32,000 bases of DNA from Candidatus Paracaedimonas acanthamoebae. Its GTDB lineage: Bacteria; Pseudomonadota; Alphaproteobacteria; Caedimonadales; Caedimonadaceae. Location of the stretch: positions 1 to 32,000 of the forward strand of contig CP008937.1 of the NCBI GenBank assembly GCA_000743035.1, written 5' to 3'. A program made the position numbers and the translations under genes. The notes below the pieces were generated by a model. That model did no database searches. It worked only from the letters and a program-made list of their open reading frames with translations, and was not told where the DNA came from. How positions within the stretch are numbered: the first letter of the stretch is position 1; each line of letters begins with the position of its first letter. Of the stretch, positions 655 through 29,367 are shown in pieces.

Positions 655-969
655 ATGATCACCTCTTTTATTAAAAAAACTAAGGACTCAATTTCAGAGC
701 ATACATTAGCTCTCTCTTTGAGCGTGTATCTTTTGATTGAAAGCCATCCGGCCTTTGCCTTTTCTCAAGTCTTTACTGGGAAATTAGGAGAATTAAGGAA
801 CGGCCTTATCTTAATTGGTAAGGCGTGTGTAGGTGTTGCGCTGGTGGCAGCTCTTTTTAAGTTCTTAACGAATCAAGGAGGAAACTGGAAATGGATTGGC
901 TCCATTTGTGGTGTTGGGTGTGCGCTTATCGGTATTAATATCCTTGTTCAATTTATGGGGGGAAGCTGA
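655..969 (+). CDS. virB2: VirB2/TrbC-like T4SS pilin subunit (104 aa)
   Basis: AGGAG about 10 nt upstream. Long leader ending in AFA|FSQ, followed by two hydrophobic segments (LILIGKACVGVALVAALF and IGSICGVGCALIGINILV). It is the first gene of a virB-ordered operon, and its stop overlaps the next start (TGATG). Confidence 0.7.
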   Translation: MITSFIKKTKDSISEHTLALSLSVYLLIESHPAFAFSQVFTGKLGELRNGLILIGKACVGVALVAALFKFLTNQGGNWKWIGSICGVGCALIGINILVQFMGGS

Positions 970-1238
970 TGAGAGCTTATGTGCTTTCCTCTGTCTCTGA
1001 ACCTCCTCAAAGGCTGTGCGCGTCACAATCAGCCATTCCTTTACCCATGATTATAGCAGGAATGACATGGTTCTTAACAAATGAGATGGTGGCCATTGGG
1101 GCTTATATCCTCTCTCATGGAGCTGTTATTGCTCTAAGCTCTTATGATCCTTATTTTGTAGAAGTGATGCGAGCTCGCTTTAAATACAAGCGAACAAAAC
1201 GGCAGCTACCCCAAGGAGGCAATCTCTATGGCGCATGA
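969..1238 (+). CDS. virB3: VirB3-like T4SS inner-membrane protein (89 aa)
   Basis: Small protein with a hydrophobic core (IPLPMIIAGMTWFL...IGAYILSHGAVIAL) followed by DPYFVEVMRARFKYKR. Sits between the pilin-like gene and virB4 and overlaps virB4 by 11 nt. Confidence 0.6.
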   Translation: MRAYVLSSVSEPPQRLCASQSAIPLPMIIAGMTWFLTNEMVAIGAYILSHGAVIALSSYDPYFVEVMRARFKYKRTKRQLPQGGNLYGA

Positions 1239-3681
1239 GTGGGTCAGTATTGCCTCCTTAGCTGCTGGGAGCTCTGCCTTAGCTTTGGGAGCAGGCGTTG
1301 CTTTATCAAATCGTTTACAAAGAAAGCTCACGCCATCTTTCGAGGAAACTTATCTTAAAGACACGCTGCCTTTTGATTCAGTGTGGGAGGATAAGATAAC
1401 CCTTCAAAGCAAGAATGGAATGCTCTCTCGCCTTATTAAAATCAGGGGAACAAATACGGATAATTTAACCTCTGATGAACTTCATCATCTATTTGAAAAA
1501 AGAAAAAAGTGGCTTGACGAGTTGGCTCAAATGAATGTGATTATAAAAGTCTTAACAACGCGAGAAGAGATCACCCGCACGCTAGAAGGAACATATGACA
1601 CTGAGGTGCTGCAATCAGTCCATGATCAATGGATGGAACAATTTGATCGGACGTTCCTCAATCATCATTACATTACCTTATGTGTGGCTCCTCAATTACC
1701 TTCTTCTTTAGACAAACTAAGAGATAAGATTTATGGCAGAAAAACTGAAACAACATCTTTTCATGAACATATCTTAAGAGAAGCTACTTCTCTTACCCTT
1801 GAAGCCCTTCATGATTTAGAGCCTCACATGATCAAAAATGATGGGAGTTTAAGCCCTCTTTTAAGTTTTTGGTCACATCTTATTCATGGAAGATCAGCGC
1901 CTTTAAAACCTTTAAACTCTCATCTCTCAGATCAAATGGTCTCATGTCAGGTTGGGTTTGACACTCAAAAGGGGAATATAGAGTGGAAAGATGAACTTGG
2001 TAAAAGATTTGGAGCCATCTTAACTCTTAATAAATGGGACAAAAACTCAAGCCCACAGCTGATGAAAGATTTAAGTTCTCTTAAAGGTCAATTTATCATC
2101 TGCCAACTTTTAAAAGGAACTTCTAAAGCAAAAGCTCTTCTTTATCTCATGGATCAAAAGAAGCAACGAAGTCTTTTGGGAGATCTGTTTCCCAATGATC
2201 AAGTGATGGAAGAGTTTGATGCCGCCATAGAGCTGATTACCTCGGATCAAGCCTCCCTTTATGGGTATCAATGTTCCATCGTATTGATTTCAGATTCATA
2301 TGACGAATTAACAACTTTATGTGAAGAAGCAAGACGCATCTTTAAATCTTATGGGGCCCTCCCGATTCAAGAAACAGCGTCCCTTGAATATGCCTGGCGA
2401 TCTCAGTTCCCAGGCAGTGAATCTTTTTTAAGACAAACCCATCCTTTATCGCATAATATCAGTCATCTTCTTTCTTTTGATCATGAACCTCAAGGGTTTC
2501 AAAGGTGTGATTGGGGAGAGGGGCCTATACGCCTTTTTAAAACCTCATCAGGCTCTTCTTATGCTCTTCAAATCCATTCTTCAGAAGAAAAAGAAGCTTT
2601 GGCGAATTCAATTGTGATTGCGCCTGCAGGATCAGGCAAGACAACTTTCTTTCAGCATCTCATAGGGGGCGCATTAAGGCACTCTAATTTAAGAGCTTAT
2701 ATCTTTGATCGGTTTAATGGCACCCGGATTTTTACTCAAAGCATGGGGGGAAACTATATAGATTTTAGCCATCAAAACACCTCTTTGCTTAATCCCTTTT
2801 ATTGTGAGGACACCCCTCAAGAAAGATCCTTCCTTCCTCAGCTTTTATGTATGATGGCAAGTGTTCAAGACGAAGAGAGCCTGGAGGTGGCTCAAAGAGC
2901 CATCCAAATTCTTTTCAAGGTCCCTAAAGAACAAAGGCTCTTAAAATATCTTATAGAGGATCTTTTTCCGGCTCAAAGTTTAATTAAAAGAAGGTTGCTT
3001 CCTTGGACTGAGGGCGGCGCTTTAGGAGGTTGGTTTAACGGATCCCAAGAACTTAACGGTAACATTGAGGCTTACGATGCTTTGGACCTTACTTCGCATC
3101 GCCTTGTTGCCTTTGAGATGACGGATGTGCAAGCCAATCCTCAAGTTGCCAACACTGTAACTCAATACATTATTCATCGGATAAGGCGGGTGATTCGCGA
3201 AGAAGCACTCCCTCATTTTATTTTTATTGATGAAACAGCGCCTCTTATTCAGGATCATTATTTTAAATCCTCTGTCGGAGTCTTTTTTAAAGAACATCGC
3301 AAATTAAGAGGAAGCATTAATGTCTGCTTCCAGAACATTAAAGACCTTAAAGAATCGGGCATCTCATCCGTTGTCTTAGATCAATGCCCAACAAGATTTT
3401 TATTCCCTAATCCATCCGCTAAAAGAGAAGATTATGCTGATTTTGATCTTACAGAGTCTGAATGGTCTTATATTAAAGGCGAGAGCAAGATCTCGAGATC
3501 TCTCAAACACTCAGTGCTGGTTAAGCGCTTTAATGAATCGGTCATTCTAGATTGTGACCTTTCATCTTTAGGGCCTCACCTTAAGCTTTATCGCTCAGGG
3601 TCAGAGGCTGTCAAACTTGTTAACCACTTACAACACCAATGGAGCCATCAATGGGTCGAAAAATATTTAGATGCTGCTTAG
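1228..3681 (+). CDS. virB4: VirB4/TrbE/CagE-family T4SS ATPase (817 aa)
   Basis: AAGGAGG 8 nt upstream. Walker A APAGSGKTT, Walker B-like FIFIDETAP. Size and operon position are typical of VirB4. Confidence 0.95.
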   Translation: MAHEWVSIASLAAGSSALALGAGVALSNRLQRKLTPSFEETYLKDTLPFDSVWEDKITLQSKNGMLSRLIKIRGTNTDNLTSDELHHLFEKRKKWLDELAQMNVIIKVLTTREEITRTLEGTYDTEVLQSVHDQWMEQFDRTFLNHHYITLCVAPQLPSSLDKLRDKIYGRKTETTSFHEHILREATSLTLEALHDLEPHMIKNDGSLSPLLSFWSHLIHGRSAPLKPLNSHLSDQMVSCQVGFDTQKGNIEWKDELGKRFGAILTLNKWDKNSSPQLMKDLSSLKGQFIICQLLKGTSKAKALLYLMDQKKQRSLLGDLFPNDQVMEEFDAAIELITSDQASLYGYQCSIVLISDSYDELTTLCEEARRIFKSYGALPIQETASLEYAWRSQFPGSESFLRQTHPLSHNISHLLSFDHEPQGFQRCDWGEGPIRLFKTSSGSSYALQIHSSEEKEALANSIVIAPAGSGKTTFFQHLIGGALRHSNLRAYIFDRFNGTRIFTQSMGGNYIDFSHQNTSLLNPFYCEDTPQERSFLPQLLCMMASVQDEESLEVAQRAIQILFKVPKEQRLLKYLIEDLFPAQSLIKRRLLPWTEGGALGGWFNGSQELNGNIEAYDALDLTSHRLVAFEMTDVQANPQVANTVTQYIIHRIRRVIREEALPHFIFIDETAPLIQDHYFKSSVGVFFKEHRKLRGSINVCFQNIKDLKESGISSVVLDQCPTRFLFPNPSAKREDYADFDLTESEWSYIKGESKISRSLKHSVLVKRFNESVILDCDLSSLGPHLKLYRSGSEAVKLVNHLQHQWSHQWVEKYLDAA

Positions 3682-4406
3682 TTTTAAGCAGCCTTTTTAT
3701 AGGTCATAGTAAAGAATCTCATTCTGGGGCTTTAGCGACTTTTGATTTTAAAACATTTAAGACTCTCAGCAACGTTTTAAGTACTGCGGGGGAATCATTA
3801 CAGGAGCTTAAAACATTATCAGGTGAGATGATGGAAATGAATAGTGTTCTGGGGTCAAGACTTGATCCAGGTTTTCTTCAAAAAGTTATGAAAGTGGGAA
3901 ATTTAAGCGGTGATTTTAGTTTTCTTTTAAGCAGCCTCACAGGGCAAGGAGGGGATTCCTTAATGCAACTCAACCATATGAATGTCCAACATGGGGGAAA
4001 GAAAGATTTTTCAAACTATATTTATGCTAAAAACTATTTTCAGCAGAAGTTTTTTTCAGATAGGTCCATAACAACGCCAACACAATTATCCCAACTTAGA
4101 GATCAAAAACTTGAGGCTGTTCAAGTTTCAACAGTGGATTCCTTAGCTATCGCAACTCAGCAAAAGAAAACACTGAGGGACGATCACTATCAGCTCACCC
4201 AGATAAAGGTGCAAGCTGAACAGAACCCAACCCTTCAATATCAAACGAATATGCAAACAAGACTCCTTGAGCATATTGCTCATCAGTTGGACAAACTTAT
4301 TCTCCTTCAATCTCAACAATTAGAGTTAATGGCAACTTATATGGCACAAGCCCAACCTACAGTTTTTAAAAAGATGTCTTCACCTCAATTAAAAGCAGGG
4401 AAATAA
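3651..4406 (+). CDS. VirB5/TrbJ-position secreted coiled-coil protein (about 251 aa)
   Basis: Start taken at the ATG at 3651 (GGAG 6 nt upstream) rather than 3639. N-terminal signal-like segment FRCCLVLSSLFIGHS, and a Q/L-rich C-terminal half. Assigned by position between virB4 and virB6 and by architecture only. Confidence 0.45.
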   Translation: MGRKIFRCCLVLSSLFIGHSKESHSGALATFDFKTFKTLSNVLSTAGESLQELKTLSGEMMEMNSVLGSRLDPGFLQKVMKVGNLSGDFSFLLSSLTGQGGDSLMQLNHMNVQHGGKKDFSNYIYAKNYFQQKFFSDRSITTPTQLSQLRDQKLEAVQVSTVDSLAIATQQKKTLRDDHYQLTQIKVQAEQNPTLQYQTNMQTRLLEHIAHQLDKLILLQSQQLELMATYMAQAQPTVFKKMSSPQLKAGK

Positions 4407-5465
4407 ATGATGGATAAACCTATCGAAATTATTAAAATGCTTGAGCTCAGGATGGAAAGCTATGGCGTTAAAATTTTTAATGCCTTAAGTGTAGGGTGTC
4501 TTTCTCTTTTTATGGCCGCTTTTGGGTGCTGGTTTGTCTGGCAACTGATTTGGAAAGGAGCCATTAAAGGAGAATTCCACTTCTCTGATTTTCTAAAACC
4601 ATTTTTAATCAGCATATCTATTTCAATTCTTCTAACAGCTAGCACTTTCTCAAATTGGTTCTACTTGCCCATCAATGAAACGGTTGCAAAACTAGTTGAG
4701 ACCATGATTTCTGTTATAAAGGTTAATTATTCAGGGTCTAAAGCCACTCTTTTTTCCGTGCTCAAGTTTCAATACGGAACGCTCAATCAAGTTTTTGAGT
4801 CGATGAGTTTAATGATGCAAGATACCGGGATTATTCCAGGATTTAATACACTTGCTTCCATCATTATGAGAATACCCTTTCTCTTTCTTTACATTATTAT
4901 GCTTTGTTATTGTTTAGACTATATGTTCAAGCTGATGGCTGTCACAGCTTTGTCTCCCTTACTCATTATCTTTGCAGGCTTTTCATCAACCCGAAGTATA
5001 TCCACATCAGGACTTAAGATGGTCTTGCATGGGGTTTTTACAATTTTGATTTCTGTCATTGCCATGGGCCTGAGCTTATATGTGCTTAAAGAATCACTTC
5101 ATCTCATACCTTTGGATGGAAATGGTATTTTAAGGGAAGATGCAGGCTCATTTGCCTTTAGTGATGCTTATTGGACATGCTTTATCATTGCCTGCCTTTC
5201 AATCTACCTTCAGCTTAAAGTCCCCACCATTGCGAACATTGCAGGAGCTTCTGATGGACCTGGTGCTGCAGGATTTGTGGCAGGCGTCTCTTCGGCAACC
5301 ATGGGGATGATAGGGGGAGGTGCAAAGCATTACGGCCAAAAAGGGGCTCAAAAAGCATGGGGCGCTGTCAAGGGTTGGGCAGGGCCTAAAATCAAGAATC
5401 ATCTGTCATCCCGTGGTTCATCATGGGAGAACCCTGCTCTTAACAATATTATTGGTTCAGAATAA
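4407..5465 (+). CDS. virB6: VirB6/TrbL-like polytopic T4SS membrane protein (352 aa)
   Basis: At least five long hydrophobic segments and a Gly-rich C-terminal tail. Starts directly after the preceding stop, in the canonical virB6 position. Confidence 0.7.
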   Translation: MMDKPIEIIKMLELRMESYGVKIFNALSVGCLSLFMAAFGCWFVWQLIWKGAIKGEFHFSDFLKPFLISISISILLTASTFSNWFYLPINETVAKLVETMISVIKVNYSGSKATLFSVLKFQYGTLNQVFESMSLMMQDTGIIPGFNTLASIIMRIPFLFLYIIMLCYCLDYMFKLMAVTALSPLLIIFAGFSSTRSISTSGLKMVLHGVFTILISVIAMGLSLYVLKESLHLIPLDGNGILREDAGSFAFSDAYWTCFIIACLSIYLQLKVPTIANIAGASDGPGAAGFVAGVSSATMGMIGGGAKHYGQKGAQKAWGAVKGWAGPKIKNHLSSRGSSWENPALNNIIGSE

Positions 5466-5476
5466 AGGAAAAAACC

Positions 5477-5638
5477 ATGAAATATTTATATCTTCCTCTT
5501 CTCGTACTGACGCTTCTGGCAAGTGGGTGTTCTCAAACAAGTGATCCTTATACAGGCAGTGGTACCGATAAACTGCCTCAAAGCGAATGCTCTCCTTGCA
5601 AAAAGCAAATTATTTATCGGAATGGACAATGGATTTAG
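5477..5638 (+). CDS. VirB7-like small lipoprotein (53 aa); below the ORF-track size cutoff
   Basis: Own translation: MKYLYLPLLVLTLLASGCSQTSDPYTGSGTDKLPQSECSPCKKQIIYRNGQWI*. AAGGA 8 nt upstream. Lipobox-like LLASG|C. Sits between virB6 and virB8 and overlaps the virB8 start by 10 nt. Confidence 0.55.
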   Translation: MKYLYLPLLVLTLLASGCSQTSDPYTGSGTDKLPQSECSPCKKQIIYRNGQWI

Positions 5639-6297
5639 AACCTTCTCTTCAAAGCTTTGAATCTTATAAAGCGGCTCAAACAACGGCTCGTCTTTCAACA
5701 ATATGTGCTGTTGTTTTGGGATTAGCCGTCATTGCGCTTGTTTGCCTTATCATTGTGCTTCTTCCTTTAAAAGAGGTGCAGCCTATGCTGGTGACTCTTA
5801 AGGATAAAGGAGAACAAGTGGTTCGCATTGAGCCTATTACACGCAATGAAAAAGCAACAATCCTTCTGATGGAAACGCTTTCTCGTCAATATGTTACTTT
5901 ACGGGAGACCATTGATCTGCAAACAGAAGAGCTCAGGTGGAAGCAATTAAGTCTGATGACAGGTGCTCAATTAAATGACGAATTCATGTCCCTTATGAAG
6001 CCTGAAAATCAAGACTCTCCTTTTAAGAAAAGACAAGAAGAACTAGTGACGCGAGAAATCCAAATCCTCTCAAGCACTTCTTTAGCACCCAGTGCGCCTA
6101 ATATTTATCAAGTGGAGTGGATATCACGTGATCGTCATAAAGGACAAGTAATTGGTCAAGGACATTGGGTTTCAACATTAACAGTCTCCTTAGAACCTCA
6201 GGCAGTCTCAATTGAGGATCAATATATCAATCCTATTGGCTTTACCGTCACCCACTATACGCTTGCTCAGAAAGGAAGTCTTGATGCTCAAAAATAA
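5629..6297 (+). CDS. virB8: VirB8-family T4SS protein (222 aa)
   Basis: Start taken at the internal ATG at 5629 (MDLEPS...). Short cytoplasmic N-terminus, a single TM segment (LSTICAVVLGLAVIALVCLIIVLLPL), and a periplasmic domain containing YVTLRETID. Canonical operon position. Confidence 0.8.
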   Translation: MDLEPSLQSFESYKAAQTTARLSTICAVVLGLAVIALVCLIIVLLPLKEVQPMLVTLKDKGEQVVRIEPITRNEKATILLMETLSRQYVTLRETIDLQTEELRWKQLSLMTGAQLNDEFMSLMKPENQDSPFKKRQEELVTREIQILSSTSLAPSAPNIYQVEWISRDRHKGQVIGQGHWVSTLTVSLEPQAVSIEDQYINPIGFTVTHYTLAQKGSLDAQK

Positions 6298-7240
6298 CTC
6301 AAAATCTATCACTCTTATGATATTGACGCCGCTTCTCATTGCCTCTCCTTTAGGAAGAGCAAGTTCCCAACCTATACATCAGCCGCCAGTCATGGCGCCA
6401 ACACCAGCCCCAGAAGATTTAATGCCATCTAGCTCATCCCATGTCCTCACTGAGCATCCAGATGTAGAACACCAAGTGAAAGGCCATTATCCTGATTTGG
6501 AGCGTAAAGAATCATTGCCTTTAGGGGCCATTCAGCATGCTTGGGATCATGCGAAAGAAGGAGCTGGAGTTTATAATGTCACTTATACAGGTAGCGAAAT
6601 TATTAAGCTCCGATGCCGAGAGATGATGACAACGTGTATTATCCTGCCCAGCTGGGAGAGGGTTGAGAAGTTCACCCTTGGTGATCCTTCTTCTTTTAAG
6701 GTTGAGAACCCGAGAGCGAATATTCTCACCCTTCAACCTCAAGAGTTTACTGGTCTTGACAGCAACCTTGTTGTCATTGGCGCGAGTGGCAAAGTTTACT
6801 CATTTTATCTAAGATCAGAAGGGTATAACACACATCATGTGCCTGATCTGGCAGTTTATATACGAGTCGCTAAGCCTTCAAATTTTTCTTCTTCTCTCAC
6901 TAAAATAAAAGGGAAGGGCGAGACCTCAAAAGACGATTATCTTGAAGAAGTCACTTTTGATCCTTCTCAGCTTAACTTTAACTTCACCATGGCAGGCGAT
7001 AAAGAAATCGCGCCTTACCGTGTTTACAGTGATGGCATCCGCACCTGGTTTGATTATGGAGAAGAAATTAAAAAGAAGGGTCTTCCTGCCATTTACGCCG
7101 TGATAGATGGCGTAGATACGCCGATTAATGTAAATCGAGAAGGGACAAAGATTGTTGCTCAGCATTCAGGTTCTTTTACGCTTCGTAATGGCGTGAGAGT
7201 GGTATGCGTCTTTCCGACCCCTCAAGAGGCAGCGGAATGA
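6284..7240 (+). CDS. virB9: VirB9/TrbG/CagX-family T4SS outer-membrane core protein (318 aa)
   Basis: Start taken at 6284 (AAGGAAG upstream). Signal peptide MLKNNSKSITLMILTPLLIASPLGRASS, a Pro-rich linker, and a C-terminal IAPYRVYSDGIRTWFDYGE motif typical of VirB9 C-terminal domains. Confidence 0.85.
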   Translation: MLKNNSKSITLMILTPLLIASPLGRASSQPIHQPPVMAPTPAPEDLMPSSSSHVLTEHPDVEHQVKGHYPDLERKESLPLGAIQHAWDHAKEGAGVYNVTYTGSEIIKLRCREMMTTCIILPSWERVEKFTLGDPSSFKVENPRANILTLQPQEFTGLDSNLVVIGASGKVYSFYLRSEGYNTHHVPDLAVYIRVAKPSNFSSSLTKIKGKGETSKDDYLEEVTFDPSQLNFNFTMAGDKEIAPYRVYSDGIRTWFDYGEEIKKKGLPAIYAVIDGVDTPINVNREGTKIVAQHSGSFTLRNGVRVVCVFPTPQEAAE

Positions 7241-8274
7241 AGAAAGTTTGTTTTCTTTTGCTTACAACAGCTCTTTTAAGTGGGTGTTTAGAGGATGAAG
7301 CTTCAAAAAAGCCTACCCTCGAGCCACGGCAAAAGCTTGCCCCAGACTTTCATGTCTTTAAAAAACCTGAAGAGCCTAAGCCTGTTGTTGTAGAGCCGGA
7401 ACCAGAGCCTGAACCTGTGGTTGTTCATTTCCCAGATCCAAAACCTCTCATACGGGAAGATAAAGCTCGCCAATTACGAGGATTAAGGCAATATCAAGCA
7501 AACAAGACCTTAAAGGTCCTGCCCCCTAAAAAGGAAGAAGAACAAAAGCCCCGTCTTCAAGATCCAGATTATCAGCAATGGGAAGATGCAAGCTTTGAAG
7601 AATCTCGCTCTACACTTCCTGTGGACCGATCCCGAATTTTAACAGCAGATATGCGGATTCCAGCGATTTTAGAAGATTCTGTCAATTCTCAAGTGGGAGG
7701 GCGAATGATTGCCATTGTGGAGCGAGATGTCTTAAGTCCGAATGGAAAGTTTGTTCTCATTCCAGCTTATAGCCGAATCATTTGCCATTATGAGCCTTTA
7801 GGTGAAATCGGTCAAACACGTCTTCCTGTGCAATGTAAACGGTTGATTCGTCCTGATGGAGTCAGTGTCGCTCTTAAAGAGTCTATAGCGTCTGATCAAA
7901 CGGGAAGAACAGGTCTTATTGGTGAATTAGATCAACGGGTGTGGGAGCGCTATGGAGCAGCTTTTTTAATCTCAGCGACAGCTTCTCTTGCGCAAGCAGG
8001 CTCTTATGCAAGCGAGGCAAGATCTAAAAGCACTCTTTCTCAGCTTTTGACAGGAGCTTCTGATGAGTTTTCGCATAATTTAAGTGAGGCAACTTCACAA
8101 GTCATTGAACAAAATATTAATTTAGCTCCTATCTTAACCATTCCACCAGGAAGTCACATTCAAATTATCCCGTCCTCAGACATAGTCTTAAGGCATTCAA
8201 AAGAATCTCTTGCCCAAGAAAGTTCAAAAATAGCTCATGAAAAAAATAAAGATATGGAGATAAAACAACCATGA
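7237..8274 (+). CDS. virB10: VirB10/TrbI-family T4SS core protein (345 aa) with a lipoprotein-like N-terminus
   Basis: ATGA overlap with the virB9 stop. N-terminus MKKVCFLLLTTALLSG|C, a Pro-rich tract (EPEPEPEPVVVHFPDPKP), and a C-terminal TrbI/VirB10-like domain (RIPAILEDSVNSQVGG...TGLIGELDQRVWERYG...TIPPGSHIQI). Confidence 0.9.
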   Translation: MKKVCFLLLTTALLSGCLEDEASKKPTLEPRQKLAPDFHVFKKPEEPKPVVVEPEPEPEPVVVHFPDPKPLIREDKARQLRGLRQYQANKTLKVLPPKKEEEQKPRLQDPDYQQWEDASFEESRSTLPVDRSRILTADMRIPAILEDSVNSQVGGRMIAIVERDVLSPNGKFVLIPAYSRIICHYEPLGEIGQTRLPVQCKRLIRPDGVSVALKESIASDQTGRTGLIGELDQRVWERYGAAFLISATASLAQAGSYASEARSKSTLSQLLTGASDEFSHNLSEATSQVIEQNINLAPILTIPPGSHIQIIPSSDIVLRHSKESLAQESSKIAHEKNKDMEIKQP

Positions 8275-10697
8275 AATCTATTTACCGATCAATTCTCCTA
8301 TATTGCTGTGTTTCATTTTGTGGGCAATCAAATCCTTCTGAAGAAATGGGGGCTATTTTAATGGAGGACACCCCTCTTCAGGAAAGTGAATCCTTCATAA
8401 AAGCTCACCTATTTGAAGGTCAAAAGAAAAAGGATAACCCAAAGGAAATAACTTTAATTGGGCAGGCTCGGGCGATCTCCATCCCCTCAAAAAGAGACGA
8501 TAAGATTGTTCAAGTCGTTTGGACAGGTGTTAAAAGCAAAGATAAAAAAAGAGCCTCATTTAAAGAGCCTTTAATTTCAACATTCAAAAGTAAAAAGGAA
8601 ATCCTTCCTAAAGGCTTAAAGATTTCTCTTTATGGAGATAAGGCTTTCCTCTCAGATGCCATTGAGCGCCTTGAAAAAGGGGAAGACGAGCAAGGAAGTG
8701 ATGAGCTCAAAGCAGAGAATCCATTATCAAATGAACGGCGTTTAGAGGACATCGAAGGTAAGATTAAAAAACATCACTTATCAAGAGATCTCTCTGATTT
8801 AGACACGTCTGTTGAAGACAGGAGTTCTCATGATAATGCGTCAATGACGTTTTTATCAGAAAGTTATCGAGGAAATTCTTCTTCATCTGAGGAGGGAAAA
8901 AGTGCTGCTTCAATGATTCGTCAACCTTCAACTCCTCAAAATCAACTATCTGGGAGAAGGACAGGGAATTCTTTAAGAGGTAATGGTAGAGATGCATCAT
9001 ATAAAAAAAATGAGCCTTCTGCTTCTCCTGTAACTTCATCATCTCAAACATTATTTCCCGTGACACCATCAAGTCCGCAAGAATCAGGAATTCAACAAAT
9101 GCAAAAAAAGCCTCTGATAGGAGAGAAAACTTTTCCCATTTCTTCTAAGAGTTCTTCAGAAACACCCCCATCTTTATCTCATCATCCCCATAAAGATTTT
9201 GTTGAGCGCCCCAATAAAGAATTTAACCCCTTAAAAATTAACCAAAAAGATGCTTTAGGGGGAGATCAGTTTAAAATGCCTCTTATTGAGGTGGAAGTCA
9301 CAAAAGAAGGGTGTCCCCCACGGATAGATCTAGAAAGAGGTAAGGTCATTATACAAACTCGCTCCATTGCTAGAACAAATGGAGTCGTTACGGATGAAAC
9401 ACACTGTGCTGATTCTCATCTCATTTTTGATATTAAAAAAGATTACGGTTGTTGTTCTGACATTATTGATCAGCAAGCTGGTGTTGCTTATACAACTTTT
9501 AAACGGTATTGGCTCGATGATGCTAACAATAAAATATATCTTGATGAACACTGTATTAAAGATGAGTCACAACCTCACCCCTTTATAGAAGAGAGAGGCT
9601 TATGTCCTCATGACATAGATCTTCAATTACGCCTTGCGTATCCTCAAGCAGAAACAGTCTATTATGATAGGAGCAATGCTAGAAAGCTTGTTAATGCATG
9701 CCACCCGACAAATCATCACCCCTTATCGATTATTCTTACAGAGCAAGGGTGCTCACTCAAACATCTCTATGAGCAGAATAAATCTATTATTCAAAAAAGA
9801 GATATATTTATTGAAAATGGAATTACCCATGAAGTCACTCCCTGTCATGAGACAGAAGAAACAATCGCTCATCAGTTTGTTAAAGCTGGATGCAAACCAG
9901 TCATTAATGGTTCAACCGTCATTCCTATGGCTAGGCGTCAGATTAATTATAAAGATAAGACAAAGATTATTTCACAGCAGTGTGAACCCCAAGATCTTAC
10001 AAATTTAATCTTCACTAAAGAGGGGTGTGAAGGTCAGTATGAACATGATTTTGAATCAGGCCGTTCTTATCCTCTGATGAGGGCTTATTATCAATGGAAT
10101 GGCAAGAACAGATTTATTGATAAATCTTGCAGACGCTCTAATGAACCTCTCCCCCACTTCTTATCAATTATTGGATATGAGCATTTGGACCAAGAGCTTA
10201 AATCGAAGCCTCGATATCAAATATCTATTAAAGGCAGTAAAACATTATTAATTATTAAAGAATTTACAGAAAATGATGAAAATAGGTGGTTACCTTACAT
10301 CTTATCGGATGAAATCAATAGACCGTCTCTTACTCAATCACCTTCCATGGATGGAAACACTTTAATTAGTCCGCAAGATAAAGTTCAACTATGGACACGC
10401 CCTGATGGAACTATTTATGAAAAGGTGGCTGGGTTATCCAAACCTATTATACAACAACTTACTAAACCATCGAGCCCCTCTCAAACGACAGTTATCAAAA
10501 ATTCAAATACGCTTATCCAAAACAAGCCCCAAAGTACAGTTGTTCAAGTAACTCATGAATATGCGAACATTCCATACCAAGTAAAGATGGGAGATAGGAT
10601 TAAGAAAATGACTTATCATTATCCTGGCATAAGAGATGTCACTCATTACTCAGATGGCAGGAAAGTATATGGACCATGGCGAAAAAATGATAAGTGA
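8271..10697 (+). CDS. T4SS-embedded secreted protein (808 aa): signal peptide, disordered S/P/K-rich half, then six tandem Cys-pair modules
   Basis: ATGA overlap with the virB10 stop. N-terminal hydrophobic signal MKSIYRSILLYCCVSFCG. Residues about 100-335 are low complexity. Residues about 340-625 contain 13 Cys in a periodic G-C-x(30-34)-C pattern. I recognise no family. Confidence 0.8.
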   Translation: MKSIYRSILLYCCVSFCGQSNPSEEMGAILMEDTPLQESESFIKAHLFEGQKKKDNPKEITLIGQARAISIPSKRDDKIVQVVWTGVKSKDKKRASFKEPLISTFKSKKEILPKGLKISLYGDKAFLSDAIERLEKGEDEQGSDELKAENPLSNERRLEDIEGKIKKHHLSRDLSDLDTSVEDRSSHDNASMTFLSESYRGNSSSSEEGKSAASMIRQPSTPQNQLSGRRTGNSLRGNGRDASYKKNEPSASPVTSSSQTLFPVTPSSPQESGIQQMQKKPLIGEKTFPISSKSSSETPPSLSHHPHKDFVERPNKEFNPLKINQKDALGGDQFKMPLIEVEVTKEGCPPRIDLERGKVIIQTRSIARTNGVVTDETHCADSHLIFDIKKDYGCCSDIIDQQAGVAYTTFKRYWLDDANNKIYLDEHCIKDESQPHPFIEERGLCPHDIDLQLRLAYPQAETVYYDRSNARKLVNACHPTNHHPLSIILTEQGCSLKHLYEQNKSIIQKRDIFIENGITHEVTPCHETEETIAHQFVKAGCKPVINGSTVIPMARRQINYKDKTKIISQQCEPQDLTNLIFTKEGCEGQYEHDFESGRSYPLMRAYYQWNGKNRFIDKSCRRSNEPLPHFLSIIGYEHLDQELKSKPRYQISIKGSKTLLIIKEFTENDENRWLPYILSDEINRPSLTQSPSMDGNTLISPQDKVQLWTRPDGTIYEKVAGLSKPIIQQLTKPSSPSQTTVIKNSNTLIQNKPQSTVVQVTHEYANIPYQVKMGDRIKKMTYHYPGIRDVTHYSDGRKVYGPWRKNDK

Positions 10698-11625
10698 TAT
10701 GGGATTATCCTCACCTTCATTAACGGCATGGCTTGCCGAATTAAATCCATATTTGCAAGAAGAAGATTTAATAGAATGCTCTGTGATCAAAGCAGGAGAA
10801 TTGAATTTAGAGATTTCAGGGAAAGGGTATAAGAAAATCTCAACCCCTAAGCTTGATTTAAAGTATTGGGAAACCCTCTGTCATGTTTTAGCCAATCACT
10901 GGGGGTTAGCCTTTGATCCCATTATTCAACCCCGGTTATCTGTTATGCTTCCAGGCGGCCACCGATTTGAAGCAATGCTGGGATCGAACGTTGAGTCTAA
11001 GCTTTCAATCTCTATTCGGATGCGGCGTTATTTAAAGCTTTCCTTTGAAGATTATGGCCTTAATCTTGAACATGAACAGATGATCATATCTCTCATAAAA
11101 GAAGGTGCAAATATTCTTATATCAGGCGGAACGAGTTCAGGGAAAACGACATTTATGAACTGTCTTTTGTCATCCATTCCCCAAGATAAACGAATTCTTG
11201 TGCTTGAGGATACGAGAGAACTCACTATTCCTCATGAAAACCATGTGCACTATGTGGTTAGCCGTAATGAAAAGAACCCAACATTAGACTATCCTCAAAT
11301 GATTGATCATTTAATGAGAAGCCGGCCTGACATCATCTTAATGGGAGAGCTTTCAATGGCAAATTCTTATCCCATTTTAAGGCTTTTGAACTCAGGTCAT
11401 GCAGGCTTTATGTGTACCCTTCATGCCAATAGCTGTGAATCAGCTCTTTCGTGGGCCATTCCGCAAAACATTGCGTTCTCAGGGCATGAGCCAAAGGGTG
11501 TCAAAGAGTTCCTGTATGAAGCTGTTGATTTGGTCATTCAGCTACATCGCAGCGACAAAGGACAGCGCTATGTAGGGGAGATGATGTTCCCGAAAACACA
11601 AGAGCTTATCAGGATTCAGCCATGA
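10687..11625 (+). CDS. virB11: VirB11-family T4SS traffic ATPase (about 312 aa)
   Basis: Walker A GGTSSGKTT, Asp box LVLEDTREL, His box GHAGFMCTLHAN. The start is ambiguous between 10687 and 10699; the ORF-track start at 10636 lies inside the upstream gene. Confidence 0.95.
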   Translation: MISDMGLSSPSLTAWLAELNPYLQEEDLIECSVIKAGELNLEISGKGYKKISTPKLDLKYWETLCHVLANHWGLAFDPIIQPRLSVMLPGGHRFEAMLGSNVESKLSISIRMRRYLKLSFEDYGLNLEHEQMIISLIKEGANILISGGTSSGKTTFMNCLLSSIPQDKRILVLEDTRELTIPHENHVHYVVSRNEKNPTLDYPQMIDHLMRSRPDIILMGELSMANSYPILRLLNSGHAGFMCTLHANSCESALSWAIPQNIAFSGHEPKGVKEFLYEAVDLVIQLHRSDKGQRYVGEMMFPKTQELIRIQP

Positions 11626-12116
11626 GATATCCCTTTGTTATAACCATGATTGTTTTCTTGACTTTTATGGCCCCAGCCAAAGCCAATCTTTGTTTAAAAG
11701 CCATTGATCTTCTCTCAGATCAAATCAATGTGCCAAAAAAGCTTCTCCTGCAAATTGCTAAAGTTGAAAGTGGCTTTGGTCCTCATAGAGCCCCGTGGCC
11801 ATGGTCAATTCACATTCAAGGCAAAAGTTATTACTTTAAGACGGAGAAAGTCGCTTCAATTTATATCAAGGAGCTTCTGGCTTTGGGGATTGAGAACTTT
11901 GATGTGGGGTGTCACCAGATCAATTATTTCTGGCACAAAGATAAAGTAAATTCGGCTCAAGAGCTGTTAAATCCTTTAAAAAATACCTCAATTGCTGCCC
12001 AGTTTCTTGTCTCCCTTAGAGCTCAGCATCACAGCTGGTTTAAGGCTGTTGCTCATTATCATTCATCCAACCCCCAAAAAGGACTTACTTATGCAAAATT
12101 GGTTTTTCAATCTTAA
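11622..12116 (+). CDS. VirB1-like lytic transglycosylase (SLT domain, 164 aa)
   Basis: ATGA overlap with the virB11 stop. Signal peptide (FLTFMAPAKA) and a catalytic-Glu motif LLLQIAKVESGF, followed by GCHQINYFWH and AVAHYHSSNP. Confidence 0.8.
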   Translation: MRYPFVITMIVFLTFMAPAKANLCLKAIDLLSDQINVPKKLLLQIAKVESGFGPHRAPWPWSIHIQGKSYYFKTEKVASIYIKELLALGIENFDVGCHQINYFWHKDKVNSAQELLNPLKNTSIAAQFLVSLRAQHHSWFKAVAHYHSSNPQKGLTYAKLVFQS

Positions 12117-13974
12117 AAAGATTTTAAGTCAATCCTGGACACTTTTGTGTGTGCCCATTGTCATTTACGCGCGCCCTTGGCTTGAGATGGTCTTTGGCTT
12201 TTATAGCGCTTACGCCTTTTTATGCTTCTTGCCAGGGTTTGTTTCGTTAATTGCTTTTGGCCTTTATCGGATAGAAAGAGGCTCTTTCGCTCCTGTTATT
12301 TTAGGCCTTTTATGTTCTCTGTGGTTTGGGTCTCTATTTACTTATTCTGTGGCCCTGCAAATGATTGTGCCAATCTTGCCAAAGAATATTCTTGAGGTGT
12401 TTTATTTTCTTGAAAAGGTTGAAGTGACATGGCCTTTAATTGCCTCAAGCTCTCTTTTAATTTCTCTTTTTATTGTGACCCATTTAATCAAATATGGCCT
12501 CACCCAGCAAAAAAAAGTCAAACAAGAAAACAGCCATGGATCAGCTCGATTTGCCACATCCCAAGAAATTAAAGCTCTTCATCATGAAAAAGGCATCCCA
12601 GTGGGTTGTCTCATTAAGGGAGAACTATCAACAGATGTTAATGTTCTAAAAAAAGAGGTTCAAACAAGAGGATCTCAAGAAATTATTAGAATGAATCCTC
12701 ATCATATGGTGCTCATTGCTCCAAGTGGAGCTGGCAAAGGAGTTGGCATCATTATCCCAACCCTGCTTGATTATGATGGCCCTGTGCTCGTGACTGATGT
12801 GAAGGCTGCTGAGAACTTTCATGTGACAGCTCGCAGACGAAAAGAGCTTGGCAGAGAAGTTTATGCCCTTGATCCTTTTAAGAAGACAACCCACGAATCA
12901 GGCTCCATTAATATTCTTGATTTTTTAGATCCTGAATCAGAAGAAGTCGTTGATGATGCTGCCATGATTGCCTCCCTCCTTGTTCCTATCCCTACCAACA
13001 TCAATGGAAACTCTAAACATTTCTATGATAGGGCACGATCAATTATTCAAGCCATGATTTTATATGTTGTTTGCTCAGAAGAATTTAGTGTAGAGGAAAA
13101 AACACTTTTTCAAGTTTATAAACTTCTCTGTCAAACAGGAGAAGACTTTAAAGATATGCTTAACTATATCTCTGCACAAGAAGACCTTGCCTATGGTCAA
13201 CCTGCAAGAGTCGCCGCAGCTCTTTTAACAACAGCTCCGGAAGAGATTTCAGGAAGTCTCAATACAGTCAGAAATGAGCTCGGAATCTTTGATAGTCCTT
13301 TAATCCAAAAAGTGACATCAAAATCAACCATTGATCTTAATAAGCTTATCCAAAATAAAGCTGATCTTTTTCTCTGTATTCCTTTAGAAAAGTTAAAATC
13401 ATATAGCAAGCTTATGCGCCTCATCGTTTCAATGGCTTTTTCTATGGCTCAAAAAAATGAACAAAGGGGTCCAATCCCTCTTTTGATGGTTCTTGATGAG
13501 ATGTCATTATTGGGGGCTATTCCCGCAGTTGATGAAGCTTTAGTTGCAGGGAGAGGTTATGGGGTTAAAATTTTAGCTGTGGCACAAAATATAGAACTTA
13601 TTCAGAAGATCTCCCCAGAAGCATGGGAGACCTTCATGGAGAGTAATCTTTTAGCTTTTATTGGGCCCTCAGGTCTTAAAAGTTCAGAATATGTTTCTAA
13701 AATGCTCGGCACCTCTACCATTGAAACGGTCTCTAAAAGTAAAGGTGAGAATCAACAAAAAGGAAGTAAATCTTTTGCTATGTCAGAAAACCAAGGAGAG
13801 TCTCAATCTTATCAAGGACGCCCTATCTTAACAGCTGACGAAGTTCGCTATCTGGGGGAAGATATGGTGCTCGTTTTTTACAAAGGCATACGTCCTATGA
13901 TTCTTAAAAAGATTATTTATCATCGTCATATAGCTTGGAAGAACAAGTATGACCCTAATCCTTTAGAGGAGTAA
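12091..13974 (+). CDS. virD4: VirD4/TraG-family type IV coupling protein (627 aa)
   Basis: Start at 12091 (AAGGA 8 nt upstream). N-terminal TM segments, Walker A APSGAGKGVG, Walker B-like LLMVLDEMSLLG. It is the last gene of the operon. Confidence 0.95.
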   Translation: MQNWFFNLKKILSQSWTLLCVPIVIYARPWLEMVFGFYSAYAFLCFLPGFVSLIAFGLYRIERGSFAPVILGLLCSLWFGSLFTYSVALQMIVPILPKNILEVFYFLEKVEVTWPLIASSSLLISLFIVTHLIKYGLTQQKKVKQENSHGSARFATSQEIKALHHEKGIPVGCLIKGELSTDVNVLKKEVQTRGSQEIIRMNPHHMVLIAPSGAGKGVGIIIPTLLDYDGPVLVTDVKAAENFHVTARRRKELGREVYALDPFKKTTHESGSINILDFLDPESEEVVDDAAMIASLLVPIPTNINGNSKHFYDRARSIIQAMILYVVCSEEFSVEEKTLFQVYKLLCQTGEDFKDMLNYISAQEDLAYGQPARVAAALLTTAPEEISGSLNTVRNELGIFDSPLIQKVTSKSTIDLNKLIQNKADLFLCIPLEKLKSYSKLMRLIVSMAFSMAQKNEQRGPIPLLMVLDEMSLLGAIPAVDEALVAGRGYGVKILAVAQNIELIQKISPEAWETFMESNLLAFIGPSGLKSSEYVSKMLGTSTIETVSKSKGENQQKGSKSFAMSENQGESQSYQGRPILTADEVRYLGEDMVLVFYKGIRPMILKKIIYHRHIAWKNKYDPNPLEE

Positions 13975-20470: not shown

Positions 20471-20770
20471 ATGCAAGCCATTGAAAAAAAGATCACTAAA
20501 CTTGAAGAGCAAAAAGTAAAGTTGGAGAAAGAAATTGCTGAACTCCAGCAGAAGAGACACGAAGAATTTTTATCCCTCTTGAACAAAATTCCCTCCCTCA
20601 ATCTTGAGCCTATGACACTTATTGGGGGGCTTCTTCATGTAATTGAGGAAACGCAAAAGAAACCTGAGCTGAAGGAGAAGTGGCTACTAGCTGCCCAGAA
20701 ATTTTGTGGAAGACCAATTCCTCAAAAAAGAGCAAAGGAATCTCCAGCTTCTTCACAAAAGGCTGCGTAA
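20471..20770 (+). CDS. TraC(Ti)-like relaxosome accessory protein (99 aa, coiled-coil)
   Basis: Divergent from traA across oriT. Charged N-terminal heptad region (KKITKLEEQKVKLEKEIAELQQKR). Size and position match Ti-plasmid TraC. Sequence similarity was judged only loosely. Confidence 0.45.
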   Translation: MQAIEKKITKLEEQKVKLEKEIAELQQKRHEEFLSLLNKIPSLNLEPMTLIGGLLHVIEETQKKPELKEKWLLAAQKFCGRPIPQKRAKESPASSQKAA

Positions 20771-20771
20771 A

Positions 20772-21155
20772 ATGACGCAACAATTTAATAAAAATTCTTG
20801 GGACTTAGAGCATTATAAACGTAAGCTAAAGCGTTTTGAAGTGAGTGATCGTAAAGCAGAGAATCGGACAAAAATCCAACTTGGAGGATTGATTTTAAAG
20901 TCAGGTCTTGCATCATTTTTAGAAATACAGCCTGGTGATGATCTGCAGCTTGATCCTCTCGCACGCGAGAAAGCAACCACGTTGTTGGGTGTTCTTCTTT
21001 ATGCAACAGAACAGCTTCACAATGATCCTGATGGTACGCTTAAACAAGAATGCTCTCACCAAGGTATGAAAGCGATGATGAAACAGTTCTTAAGATCAAA
21101 AGATCCTATCTCTTCTTATAAACCTAACCTCACTTCTTTTGGAGAATCCCTATGA
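20772..21155 (+). CDS. traD: TraD(Ti)-like conjugal transfer protein (127 aa)
   Basis: Start at 20772, 1 nt after the upstream stop. The motif RKAENRTKIQLGGLILKSGL...LLGVLLYATEQLHNDPDG resembles Ti TraD (R..TREKIELGGLIVKAGL...). Confidence 0.65.
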   Translation: MTQQFNKNSWDLEHYKRKLKRFEVSDRKAENRTKIQLGGLILKSGLASFLEIQPGDDLQLDPLAREKATTLLGVLLYATEQLHNDPDGTLKQECSHQGMKAMMKQFLRSKDPISSYKPNLTSFGESL

Positions 21156-21379
21156 ACCCTCACTCAAGTCAGTTTGATAAGCTTAATCAATTAATCCAAG
21201 TTTCTCTTAATTCTTCTCATGATCCTATTGCCAAAGCTTTAGAAATTGCACGTGTCTCTGGCGCTTTTAAACAAAGTAATGTCATCTTCTTCAAGAATAA
21301 ACTTTATCCCCTCAATCCTCATAATCCTCAGCAGTCGTTGCAACAACTTAAAGCCTTAAAGTTGCAGAAAGCAGGATAA
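21152..21379 (+). CDS. hypothetical protein (75 aa)
   Basis: ATGA overlap with the traD-like stop, and its own stop overlaps the next start (TAATG). I recognise no motif. Confidence 0.5.
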   Translation: MNPHSSQFDKLNQLIQVSLNSSHDPIAKALEIARVSGAFKQSNVIFFKNKLYPLNPHNPQQSLQQLKALKLQKAG

Positions 21380-21702
21380 TGCACGCAGAATTTTATCTCA
21401 AAGCTCAAAATAAAGAGGTGGACATCTTTAGATATTATCACATCATTGTGATGCCAACTCTTTTTAAAGATTGGTCTCTTCTCATTGCCAATGGCAGAAT
21501 AGGACGAAAGGCACGGCAAAGATCATTGTTATTTACCGATCTTAACCTCCTCATTAAGAAGATTAAGCAGATTCTCCATAAAAGACTCAATGCTGAAAAA
21601 CGTTTAGGATGTAATTATAAAATTATTGATCATTCTTACGATGATGAATTTAAGAGGCAAGTCATTCCTTACCTTCCCATAACTTTGTCCTCTCTTTGTT
21701 AA
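21379..21702 (+). CDS. WGR-domain protein (107 aa)
   Basis: The segment FRYYHIIVMPTLFKDWSLLIANGRIGRKARQRSLLF...LHKRLNAEKRLGCNYKII matches the WGR-domain pattern (LF..W.L....GRIG..G....F......KR..GY). Confidence 0.6.
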   Translation: MHAEFYLKAQNKEVDIFRYYHIIVMPTLFKDWSLLIANGRIGRKARQRSLLFTDLNLLIKKIKQILHKRLNAEKRLGCNYKIIDHSYDDEFKRQVIPYLPITLSSLC

Positions 21703-29075: not shown

Positions 29076-29367
29076 ATGAATGAGGCTATATTAGGGATAG
29101 ATGTTTCTAAGAAAGACCTTTCTATCGCTCTTCTCCTCCATACGTCTTATAAAAAATACAAGGTCTCTAATAACATTAAAGGCTTCATAGGTCTAACAAA
29201 GTGGCTGCAAGCACAAGGTATTGAACAAGTTAAGGCCTGTATGGAAGCCACAGGAAGCTATGGAGAGAAGCTTGCAGATTATCTCTATGAACAAGGACAT
29301 CAAGTTCATATTGTTAATCCTGCTTGTATTAAAGCCTTTGCCAGAAGCAAGCTTAGTCGCCATAAAA
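29076..29367 (+). pseudogene. IS110-family (DEDD) transposase, N-terminal fragment only
   Basis: ILGIDVSKKDLSIALL...CMEATGSYGEKLADYL...VHIVNPACIKAFARSKLSRHK matches the IS110 N-terminal domain. The expected KTDK.DA continuation is replaced from 29368 by unrelated sequence; the ORF reads on to a stop at 29402. Confidence 0.85.

What the first reader, a model, noticed from the sequence alone, without database searches (positions are those of the whole stretch)
9288..10145. Six tandem roughly 47-residue Cys-pair modules in an 808-aa secreted protein wedged between virB10 and virB11
After a signal peptide and a roughly 240-residue S/P/K-rich low-complexity region, the protein has 13 Cys arranged periodically. 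The GC or LC positions are residues 348, 394, 445, 494, 541 and 586, with spacings of 45-51. Each is followed 30-34 residues later by a partner Cys (379, 428, 477, 525, 571, 620). The lead-in contexts recur: TKEGC, YGCC, ERGLC, TEQGC, VKAGC, TKEGC. This looks like a string of small disulfide-stapled domains. Both ends of the gene overlap T4SS core genes (ATGA with virB10, 11 nt with virB11), so it should be co-expressed in step with the machine. I recognise no family. A cell-surface or pilus-associated adhesin, or a mating-pair stabiliser, is a plausible role by analogy with Cys-rich TraN of F-type systems and the repeat region of CagY.
Basis: partly seen in the sequence, partly recalled or inferred. 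Interest (0 to 1): 0.7.

Follow-up and report, generated by a model that had tools for sequence, protein, structure and literature searches.

The report
Unnamed repeat protein in T4SS operon
The six cysteine-pair repeats are real and belong to a large, unnamed family of secreted proteins that always sits between virB10 and virB11 of one group of conjugation machines, where it most likely acts as a stalk-and-tip fibre that grips the recipient cell.

Summary
The 808-aa ORF (8271-10697) has 13 Cys at exactly the stated positions. Their alternating 30-34 / 15-17 spacing was never matched in 2,000,000 random placements. Profile-profile comparison links all six ~47-aa modules.

One correction: the signal peptide is followed by a conserved folded N-domain (aa 22-140), and only then by a ~195-aa disordered linker.

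The protein has no Pfam, NCBIfam, PDB-sequence or usable Foldseek match. It nevertheless founds a large family: 607 clusters at 50% identity, in Alpha-, Beta- and Gammaproteobacteria and Desulfovibrio.

In all 15 distinct loci inspected the gene directly follows virB10; virB11 follows wherever downstream sequence is informative.

Module number ranges from 1 to 18. Conservation falls from the N-domain and first modules towards the C-terminus. One member carries a phage tail-fibre host-specificity domain at its C-terminal tip (PHROG E 1.5e-12), and a DsbA-like CPYC oxidoreductase lies next to it.

Best reading (about 0.5): a Sec-exported, disulfide-stapled stalk with an exchangeable tip, tethered to the T4SS, that binds recipient cells. 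Localisation, the export route across the outer membrane and the function are all untested.

The parts
8271..10697 (+). Gene X: 808-aa secreted repeat protein, founding member of an unnamed T4SS-linked family
   Evidence: ORF. Purifying selection against a 92%-identical homologue: dN/dS 0.28 overall. 607 homologous clusters. No Pfam or NCBIfam hit.
8271..8333 (+). Sec-type signal peptide (aa 1-21, MKSIYRSILLYCCVSFCGQS). Not a lipoprotein signal: these Cys are not conserved.
   Evidence: Alignment A1. 149 of 184 family members have a hydrophobic N-terminal segment; only 5 have lipobox-like strings.
8334..8690 (+). Conserved N-terminal domain (aa 22-140): beta-sheet plus a C-terminal amphipathic helix. 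Proposed docking domain.
   Evidence: AF2 pLDDT 85, pTM 0.77. Present in 167 of 184 family proteins. dN/dS 0.20. The only Foldseek hit of note is 6gyb_C of the X. citri T4SS core complex (E 0.035, TMq 0.37). No profile similarity to VirB9.
8691..9281 (+). Disordered S/P/K/N-rich linker (aa 141-337), variable in length among homologues
   Evidence: pLDDT below 50 for 141-334. Mean pairwise identity 0.35. dN/dS 0.72.
9282..9425 (+). Cys-pair module 1 (aa 338-385; C348-C379)
9426..9578 (+). Cys-pair module 2 (aa 386-436; C395-C428, with an extra C394)
   Evidence: C428 is lost in P0014-P0017.
9579..9725 (+). Cys-pair module 3 (aa 437-485; C445-C477)
9726..9866 (+). Cys-pair module 4 (aa 486-532; C494-C525)
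9867..10001 (+). Cys-pair module 5 (aa 533-577; C541-C571)
10002..10154 (+). Cys-pair module 6 (aa 578-628; C586-C620)
10155..10460 (+). C-unit (aa 629-730): a second type of all-beta unit (GYEH.D ... RPDGT.Y), amplified 6-7 times in some homologues
   Evidence: pLDDT 82-93. HMM hit at 629-728. P0058 has 6 copies and P0064 has 7.
10461..10694 (+). Variable C-terminal tail (aa 731-808): a short disordered stretch, then a small beta domain ending ...YGPWRKNDK. Proposed distal tip.
   Evidence: Lowest conservation of the folded parts, 0.30-0.35. This is the position where P0126 carries a tail-fibre domain.
7204..8274 (+). virB10 (TrbI domain); its stop overlaps the start of X (ATGA)
10687..11625 (+). 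virB11 ATPase (alternative start at 10636); overlaps the end of X
655..7240 (+). Upstream T4SS genes: virB2-like pilin (655-969), virB3, virB4, virB5-like (3639-4406), virB6, virB7-like lipoprotein (5477-5638), virB8, virB9
11622..13974 (+). Downstream T4SS genes: SLT lytic transglycosylase (virB1-like) and the virD4 coupling protein

Best explanation
X is a T4SS-dedicated extracytoplasmic fibre that binds the recipient cell during conjugation (mating-pair formation or stabilisation).

Proposed steps:
1. The Sec system exports it. (Shown: a signal peptide is present.)
2. In the periplasm each ~47-aa beta module is stapled by one disulfide, giving a stiff stalk. (Inferred from the invariant Cys pairs and from a DsbA-like gene beside one family member.)
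3. The conserved N-domain docks it to the machine, probably on the VirB9/VirB10 outer-membrane complex, with which it is made in step through translational coupling to virB10. (Inferred.)
4. The long disordered linker acts as a tether. (Inferred.)
5. The stalk, whose length evolves through changes in module copy number, presents the variable C-terminal end to the target-cell surface. (Inferred from the conservation gradient and from replacement of the tip by a phage tail-fibre receptor-binding domain in one member.)

How the folded protein would cross the outer membrane is unknown. A two-step, T4SS-dependent route like that of pertussis toxin, VirB5 or Pep is the nearest precedent.
For: - Signal peptide and absence of a lipobox.
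- Six true repeats. The Cys pair is kept in 933 of 1,033 modules family-wide, and 139 of 184 proteins have an even Cys count after residue 30.
- In L018/L019 a 249-aa ScsC_N/DSBA protein with a CPYC site lies between X and virB11.
- AF2 predicts an all-beta region at pLDDT above 90 for 340-730.
- Copy number ranges from 1 to 18 modules and from 0 to 7 C-units. The largest forms, 1,935-2,143 aa, seem too long for a part of fixed size in the periplasm.
- Conservation gradient: N-domain 0.67, module 1 0.76 falling to module 6 0.65, C-unit 0.52, tail 0.35.
- P0126 has the full architecture (N-domain, modules, C-unit-like region). Its residues 951-1129 match PHROG 11439 'tail fiber protein' (E 1.5e-12) and PHROG 2056 'host specificity' (E 5.9e-5), with a sub-threshold match to Pfam GP38.
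- The gene follows virB10 in 15 of 15 distinct loci across four bacterial classes. Relaxase and virD4 genes lie alongside, so these are conjugative systems.
- Of 2,514 plasmids with a VirB10 match, the ten best are all X-bearing.
- Folded parts are under purifying selection, dN/dS 0.15-0.31.
Against: - No localisation data exist.
- No beta-barrel, lipid anchor or known export signal explains how it would cross the outer membrane.
- The N-domain's partner is unknown. Its only structural lead is weak (E 0.035, TMq 0.37) and has no sequence support.
- Only one tip swap and one adjacent Dsb gene were found among the roughly 15 loci and 184 proteins examined.
- The Pfam GP38 match is below the curated cutoff (22.7 versus 25 bits), and the tip is glycine-rich, so composition may inflate the scores.
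- dN/dS in the tail (0.31) shows no positive selection in the one pair tested.
- The Azospirillum form lacks the N-domain and linker, so docking through that domain cannot be universal.
Confidence: 0.5

Rival explanations
1. X is a periplasmic structural accessory of the outer-membrane core complex: an extra ring or scaffold, like the N0 ring of Xanthomonas VirB7 or Cag3/CagT/CagM. It would stabilise or regulate the channel rather than contact other cells.
For: - Fixed position and translational coupling with virB10 (synteny).
- The best structural hit of the N-domain is a chain of the X. citri T4SS core complex.
- No outer-membrane export feature is evident.
Against: - A 1-to-18-fold range in module number and lengths up to 2,143 aa fit poorly with a part of fixed geometry.
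- A ~195-aa disordered tether is not expected in such a part.
- Nor is a phage tail-fibre receptor-binding tip in P0126.
- A separate VirB7 lipoprotein is already present at 5477-5638.
- The structural hit is weak and has no profile support.
Confidence: 0.2
2. X is an adhesin, but its target is not the recipient bacterium. It might bind a eukaryotic host such as an amoeba, a surface or a biofilm matrix, or mediate kin aggregation; or it might be a released T4SS substrate.
For: - The window's closest relatives are amoeba endosymbionts, Caedibacter and Paracaedimonas.
- The architecture resembles general surface adhesins.
- Sec-dependent substrates of T4SSs exist (pertussis toxin; established knowledge).
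Against: - The family is spread across free-living marine, soil and freshwater bacteria: Roseibium, Thalassospira, Magnetospirillum, Nitrosospira, Desulfovibrio, Microbulbifer.
- It always occurs in loci with relaxase and coupling-protein genes.
- The one identifiable tip domain is of a phage type that recognises bacterial envelopes.
Confidence: 0.15
3. X is a surface- or entry-exclusion factor, or some other self/non-self barrier, that blocks redundant mating between cells carrying the same element.
For: An extracytoplasmic protein encoded within a transfer operon, with variable distal regions that could encode specificity.
Against: Known exclusion proteins (TraT, TraS, Eex, TrbK) are small lipoproteins or inner-membrane proteins (established knowledge). 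No lipobox or transmembrane segment is present. Size, repeats and the tail-fibre tip argue for reaching outward rather than blocking.
Confidence: 0.05

Closest known systems
TraN of F-type (MPF_F) conjugation systems
   Same: A Sec-exported, cysteine-rich, all-beta accessory protein encoded within the transfer operon. It stabilises mating pairs by binding recipient outer-membrane proteins, has variable specificity-determining regions (review PMC12624023), and depends on periplasmic disulfide formation.
   Different: No sequence similarity: no Pfam family was reported at E<=0.01. The T4SS class differs (MPF_T). X has tandem ~47-aa modules with one Cys pair each, an N-domain and a long disordered tether. 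TraN has none of these (my knowledge).
CagY (VirB10 homologue of the H. pylori Cag T4SS) middle repeat region
   Same: A T4SS-associated protein with a variable number of Cys-containing tandem repeats, thought to be surface-exposed.
   Different: CagY is itself a VirB10 with a TrbI domain. X has no TrbI domain and sits beside a separate virB10. CagY repeats are predicted to be helical (my knowledge), whereas X modules are beta.
Pep/KikA and TraC (VirB5) surface adhesins of pKM101 (MPF_T)
   Same: Accessory or tip adhesins of a P-type conjugation system. They are exported to the donor surface from the periplasm and raise transfer efficiency.
   Different: They are small, non-repetitive proteins encoded elsewhere in the tra region. 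No relatedness was detected. The window has its own VirB5-like gene at 3639-4406.
Phage long-tail-fibre tip adhesins (Gp38-type, PHROG 11439/2056)
   Same: A stalk-plus-exchangeable-tip design. Family member P0126 carries such a domain at its C-terminus.
   Different: The window protein itself has no such domain: no PHROG or Pfam hit. The relation is domain shuffling in one member, not family membership.
RSP, the large Big-domain proteins of IncHI plasmid R27
   Same: A plasmid-encoded, secreted protein with tandem beta domains that is needed for conjugation (PMC6764697, title and abstract).
   Different: No Big or Ig-like Pfam match. RSP is not part of the T4SS core operon.

Membership tests
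TraN (F-type T4SS mating-pair stabilisation protein) | Sequence match to a Pfam TraN model | tested here: not met
   hmmscan of X against Pfam-A found no family at E<=0.01. None appeared among 42 homologues at E<=1.
TraN (F-type T4SS mating-pair stabilisation protein) | Encoded in an MPF_F (F-like) transfer region | tested here: not met
   The operon is VirB/MPF_T type: VirB3, B4, B6, B8, B9, B10, B11 and D4. pMSR-1 is typed MPF_T.
TraN (F-type T4SS mating-pair stabilisation protein) | Outer-membrane or surface localisation and binding of recipient outer-membrane proteins | not testable with these tools
   Requires fractionation and binding experiments.
CagY / VirB10 with a repeat region | C-terminal TrbI/VirB10 domain | tested here: not met
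   X has no TrbI hit. The adjacent ORF 7204-8274 carries that domain (E 5e-42).
Gp38-type phage tail-fibre adhesin | Match to Pfam GP38 (PF05268) or to tail-fibre PHROGs | tested here: not met
   The window protein has no hit. Only the distant family member P0126 does (PHROG 11439 E 1.5e-12; PF05268 22.7 bits, below the cutoff of 25).
VirB7 (T4SS lipoprotein, including the Xanthomonas N0-domain form) | Lipoprotein signal peptide with a lipobox Cys | tested here: not met
   The N-terminal Cys of X are not conserved. A separate 53-aa lipoprotein with an LASGC lipobox lies at 5477-5638.
VirB9 / CagX | Profile similarity to the CagX domain | tested here: not met
   No Pfam CagX hit. hhalign of the N-domain alignment against a VirB9 alignment gave probability 0.1%. 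Only a weak Foldseek hit to 6gyb_C (E 0.035).
Bacterial Ig-like (Big) repeat adhesins such as R27 RSP | Big or Ig-like Pfam domains | tested here: not met
   None found in X or in 42 homologues.
New family proposed here (virB10-virB11 intergenic Cys-module protein) | Signal peptide, tandem ~47-aa modules each with a G-C...C pair, and a C-unit (GY.H.D ... RPDGT.Y) | tested here: met
   Module and C-unit HMMs find 6 modules and 1 C-unit in X. 184 family proteins share the pattern.
New family proposed here (virB10-virB11 intergenic Cys-module protein) | Gene located immediately downstream of virB10 and upstream of virB11 | tested here: met
   The window plus 14 other distinct loci. In L011 an IS element follows X; in L018 and L020 one extra gene (dsbA-like or ssb) intervenes before virB11.

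The most novel reading that the evidence does not exclude
X defines a previously unrecognised component class of P-type T4SSs. It would be made in step with VirB10, held on the core complex by its N-domain, and exported by a Sec-then-T4SS two-step route. Multiple tethered, disulfide-stapled fibres would then surround the secretion channel. Their length (1-18 modules) and tips, including tips exchanged with phage tail fibres, would set recipient range. This would be a pilus-independent capture device and a direct evolutionary link between phage host-recognition modules and conjugation specificity.
Probability: 0.2. Interest if true: 0.85.

Novelty: new variant of a known kind. Interest (0 to 1): 0.62.

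Why it matters
How minimal VirB-type conjugation systems choose and hold recipient cells is poorly understood. TraN explains this only for F-like plasmids. This finding offers a large uncharacterised family (607 clusters) that is hard-wired into the core operon of one MPF_T clade and has a modular stalk-and-tip design.

It gives a concrete, testable candidate for a recipient-recognition determinant. If confirmed, host range could be predicted or re-engineered from the tip sequence.

It would also add a new disulfide-stapled beta-repeat fold with no match in the PDB. The fold libraries that could be searched were limited.

Tried and rejected
- Pfam, NCBIfam and PHROGs on X and on 42 homologues found nothing.
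- A PDB sequence-profile search found nothing at E<=1.
- Foldseek of the full model against the PDB and BFVD returned only spurious beta-propeller and tail-protein alignments, with TM 0.04-0.12 and rmsd 25-90 Å.
- I considered the N-domain as a VirB9-like domain. It rests on one weak Foldseek hit and was rejected at the profile level. The chain identity (VirB9) is itself inferred from chain naming and length, not verified.
- I considered X as a VirB7 substitute. This was rejected because a VirB7-like lipoprotein is present.
- A CXXC or thioredoxin gene in the window's own operon was sought and not found.
- A phmmer search of the P0126 tip against PDB sequences gave no Gp38 match.
- Literature searches for a gene between virB10 and virB11, or for Cys-repeat T4SS accessory proteins, found no description of this family.
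- The first module analysis on the 42-sequence alignment was distorted by repeat-register shifts in MAFFT, and one run parsed the wrong score column. Both were redone.
- The genome-contig scan with the broad alignment failed for lack of a conserved stretch. The narrower alignment gave only 6 loci.
Full report
**Setting**

The window (GC about 0.39) carries a complete VirB-type transfer region on the + strand:
- a VirB2-like pilin (655-969), VirB3 and VirB4;
- a VirB5-like helical secreted protein (3639-4406) and VirB6;
- a VirB7-like lipoprotein missed by the ORF list (5477-5638, lipobox LASGC);
- VirB8, VirB9 and VirB10 (7204-8274);
- the protein in question, X (8271-10697);
- VirB11, an SLT transglycosylase and VirD4.

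A 1,861-aa MobA/MobL-helicase-primase relaxase, a Ti-type TraD and a ProQ/FinO protein follow. This is therefore a conjugative element. The closest homologues of X come from Caedibacter sp. 37-49 and a plasmid of Candidatus Paracaedimonas acanthamoebae, which points to an amoeba-symbiont (Holosporales) origin. No known plasmid matches at the DNA level.

**The observation**

The regular alternation of 30-34 and 15-17 residue gaps was never reached in 2,000,000 random placements.

The repeats are more than a Cys pattern. Module profiles built from 18 homologues were compared against a null of Cys-fixed column shuffles (8.8 ± 2.3, maximum 18.7):
- modules 1, 4 and 6 align at hhalign scores 35-37 (E about 1e-7 to 1e-8);
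- modules 2-3 and 3-6 score 23.7;
- module 5 scores 17-18 against modules 1 and 6, which is just inside the null maximum, so this link is the weakest.

A pooled module HMM recovers exactly six modules. The consensus over 1,033 instances is t..GC...vDl.ag.AypQ.R.yY.ddGg....v..C.ps.

One detail was wrong. Residues 22-140 are a conserved folded domain, not low complexity. The disordered linker spans 141-334.

**Anatomy**

AlphaFold2 with 42 homologues gives the following:
- pLDDT above 90 for 340-730, all beta;
- pLDDT below 50 for the linker;
- about 85 for the N-domain: five long strands, one short strand and one helix.

Each module reads as a lead-in strand, Cys, a short strand, a long hairpin, then Cys. 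After module 6 comes a ~100-aa 'C-unit' (629-730). A short disordered stretch follows, then a small C-terminal beta domain.

Against a 92%-identical homologue, folded parts are under purifying selection (dN/dS 0.15-0.31) while the linker is relaxed (0.72).

**The family**

No Pfam, NCBIfam, PHROG or PDB-sequence match exists. Foldseek against the PDB and BFVD gives only noise.

An exhaustive profile search nevertheless finds 607 cluster representatives at E<=1e-3, of which 360 are at E<=1e-30. In PLSDB the family occurs in only 13 of 72,556 plasmids, all environmental: Roseibium, Thalassospira, Magnetospirillum pMSR-1, Magnetospira, Microbulbifer, Nitrosospira and Desulfovibrio. That probably explains why it is unnamed.

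Eleven framework Cys are invariant across 42 sequences. Both Cys are present in 933 of 1,033 modules. Module number ranges from 1 to 18, and the C-unit from 0 to 7 copies.

**Genomic context**

In the window and 14 further distinct loci the gene lies immediately after virB10. It lies before virB11 wherever downstream sequence is informative. The exceptions are an IS insertion in L011, one intervening gene in L018 and L020, and a contig too short to tell (L022). The relaxase type differs between loci (MOBQ here, MOBP elsewhere), so X travels with the mating-pair-formation module.

Of 2,514 plasmids with a VirB10 match, the ten best are all X-bearing. The next best, Azospirillum p5, has in the same slot a 378-aa protein with a signal peptide, Cys modules and a C-unit but no N-domain or linker. 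X thus marks one MPF_T clade.

**Clues to function**

1. Among close homologues, conservation falls steadily from the N-domain and first modules to the C-terminal tail (0.67, 0.76 ... 0.65, 0.52, 0.35). This is as expected if the N-terminal end contacts conserved machine parts and the far end contacts something variable.
2. Family member P0126 lies in the canonical slot and has an N-domain, a run of Cys modules (four detected by the HMM, more by eye) and a C-unit-like region. Its C-terminal ~200 residues are glycine-rich and match phage tail-fibre families: PHROG 11439 at E 1.5e-12, PHROG 2056 'host specificity' at E 5.9e-5, and Pfam GP38 just below its cutoff. A receptor-binding tip of a phage fibre has therefore been grafted exactly where the window protein has its variable tail.
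3. In the same locus a DsbA/ScsC-like protein with a CPYC active site sits between X and virB11. This supports periplasmic disulfide formation in the modules, as with the plasmid-encoded disulfide isomerases of F-like plasmids (my knowledge).
4. Variable stalk length is typical of surface fibres. It is hard to reconcile with a fixed periplasmic part.

**Mechanism proposed**

X is exported by Sec and stapled by disulfides in the periplasm. It is tethered through the N-domain and flexible linker to the T4SS, most plausibly to the VirB9/VirB10 complex with which it is co-translated. Its distal end is presented to recipient-cell surfaces to form or stabilise mating pairs.

- Shown: signal peptide, repeats, Cys conservation, synteny, family size, the tip swap and the Dsb neighbour.
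- Inferred: disulfide connectivity, docking partner, surface exposure and function.
- Unexplained: the route across the outer membrane.

The main rival is a periplasmic core-complex accessory. It draws on the fixed operon position and on a weak Foldseek hit of the N-domain to a chain of the X. citri core complex (E 0.035). That hit was not supported by profile comparison.

**Comparison with known systems**

Functionally X resembles TraN (F-type), Pep/VirB5 (pKM101) and, in its repeat variability, CagY. It fails every membership test for these families. It is best described as a new, unrelated family filling a known functional niche, namely T4SS accessory adhesins.

Noticed in passing
window 5477-5638 (+): A 53-aa VirB7-like lipoprotein (MKYLYLPLLVLTLLASGC..., lipobox LASGC, with a good ribosome-binding site upstream) lies between virB6 and virB8. 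It is too short for the default ORF list.
   Followed up: partly
window 26846-28795 (+): A 649-aa protein with two RNase III domains plus a dsRNA-binding motif in one chain. Two RNase III domains in a single polypeptide is unusual for bacteria, where the usual form is one domain that dimerises. It may be a eukaryote-like protein of an amoeba symbiont.
   Followed up: no
window 14696-20281 (-): A giant 1,861-aa relaxase that fuses MobA/MobL, a RecD-like helicase (AAA_30, SH3_13) and a C-terminal primase (Zn ribbon, DUF7146, Toprim). A Ti-type TraD (20706-21155) and a ProQ/FinO protein (21864-22394) lie nearby.
   Followed up: no
window 7700-13500 compared with L017: Synonymous divergence from the closest relative is very uneven: virB10 C-terminus 0.03, X linker 0.06, X N-domain 0.55, virB11 0.56, virD4 0.05. 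This indicates a recombination mosaic within the operon.
   Followed up: partly
L018/L019 9454-10203: A DsbA/ScsC-like oxidoreductase with a CPYC site is inserted between the X homologue and virB11. It was seen in only one lineage.
   Followed up: partly
L016 7719-8855 (Azospirillum argentinense plasmid p5): A minimal 378-aa form of the family (signal peptide, Cys modules, C-unit, no N-domain or linker) sits in the same virB10-virB11 slot.
   Followed up: partly
X family C-termini (for example P0019-P0027); window aa 800-808: 76 of 184 family proteins end in W, F or Y, and many end in ...[LIV]GW or ...GW[RK]. The window protein ends ...YGPWRKNDK. The meaning is unknown; it could be a beta-signal-like motif or a partner-binding motif.
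   Followed up: no
P0015-P0017, alignment A1 columns for C395/C428: In this subgroup C428 is lost while C395 is kept. That leaves a possibly unpaired Cys, or one that forms a bond between molecules. Two extra Cys appear in the C-unit and tail.
   Followed up: no
L011 6208-7944: The VirB10 of this X-bearing locus is 578 aa long and carries an extra Calx-beta domain. An ISL3 transposase is inserted right after X.
   Followed up: no
window 22449-23372, 23506-25181, 29076-29402, 29479-30603: Cargo and mobile genes: a YhgA-like transposase, a UmuD/UmuC pair, an IS110 transposase fragment and a YhcG/DUF1016 nuclease. A GNAT-TPR protein lies at 25433-26749 and a small WGR-domain protein at 21379-21702.
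   Followed up: no
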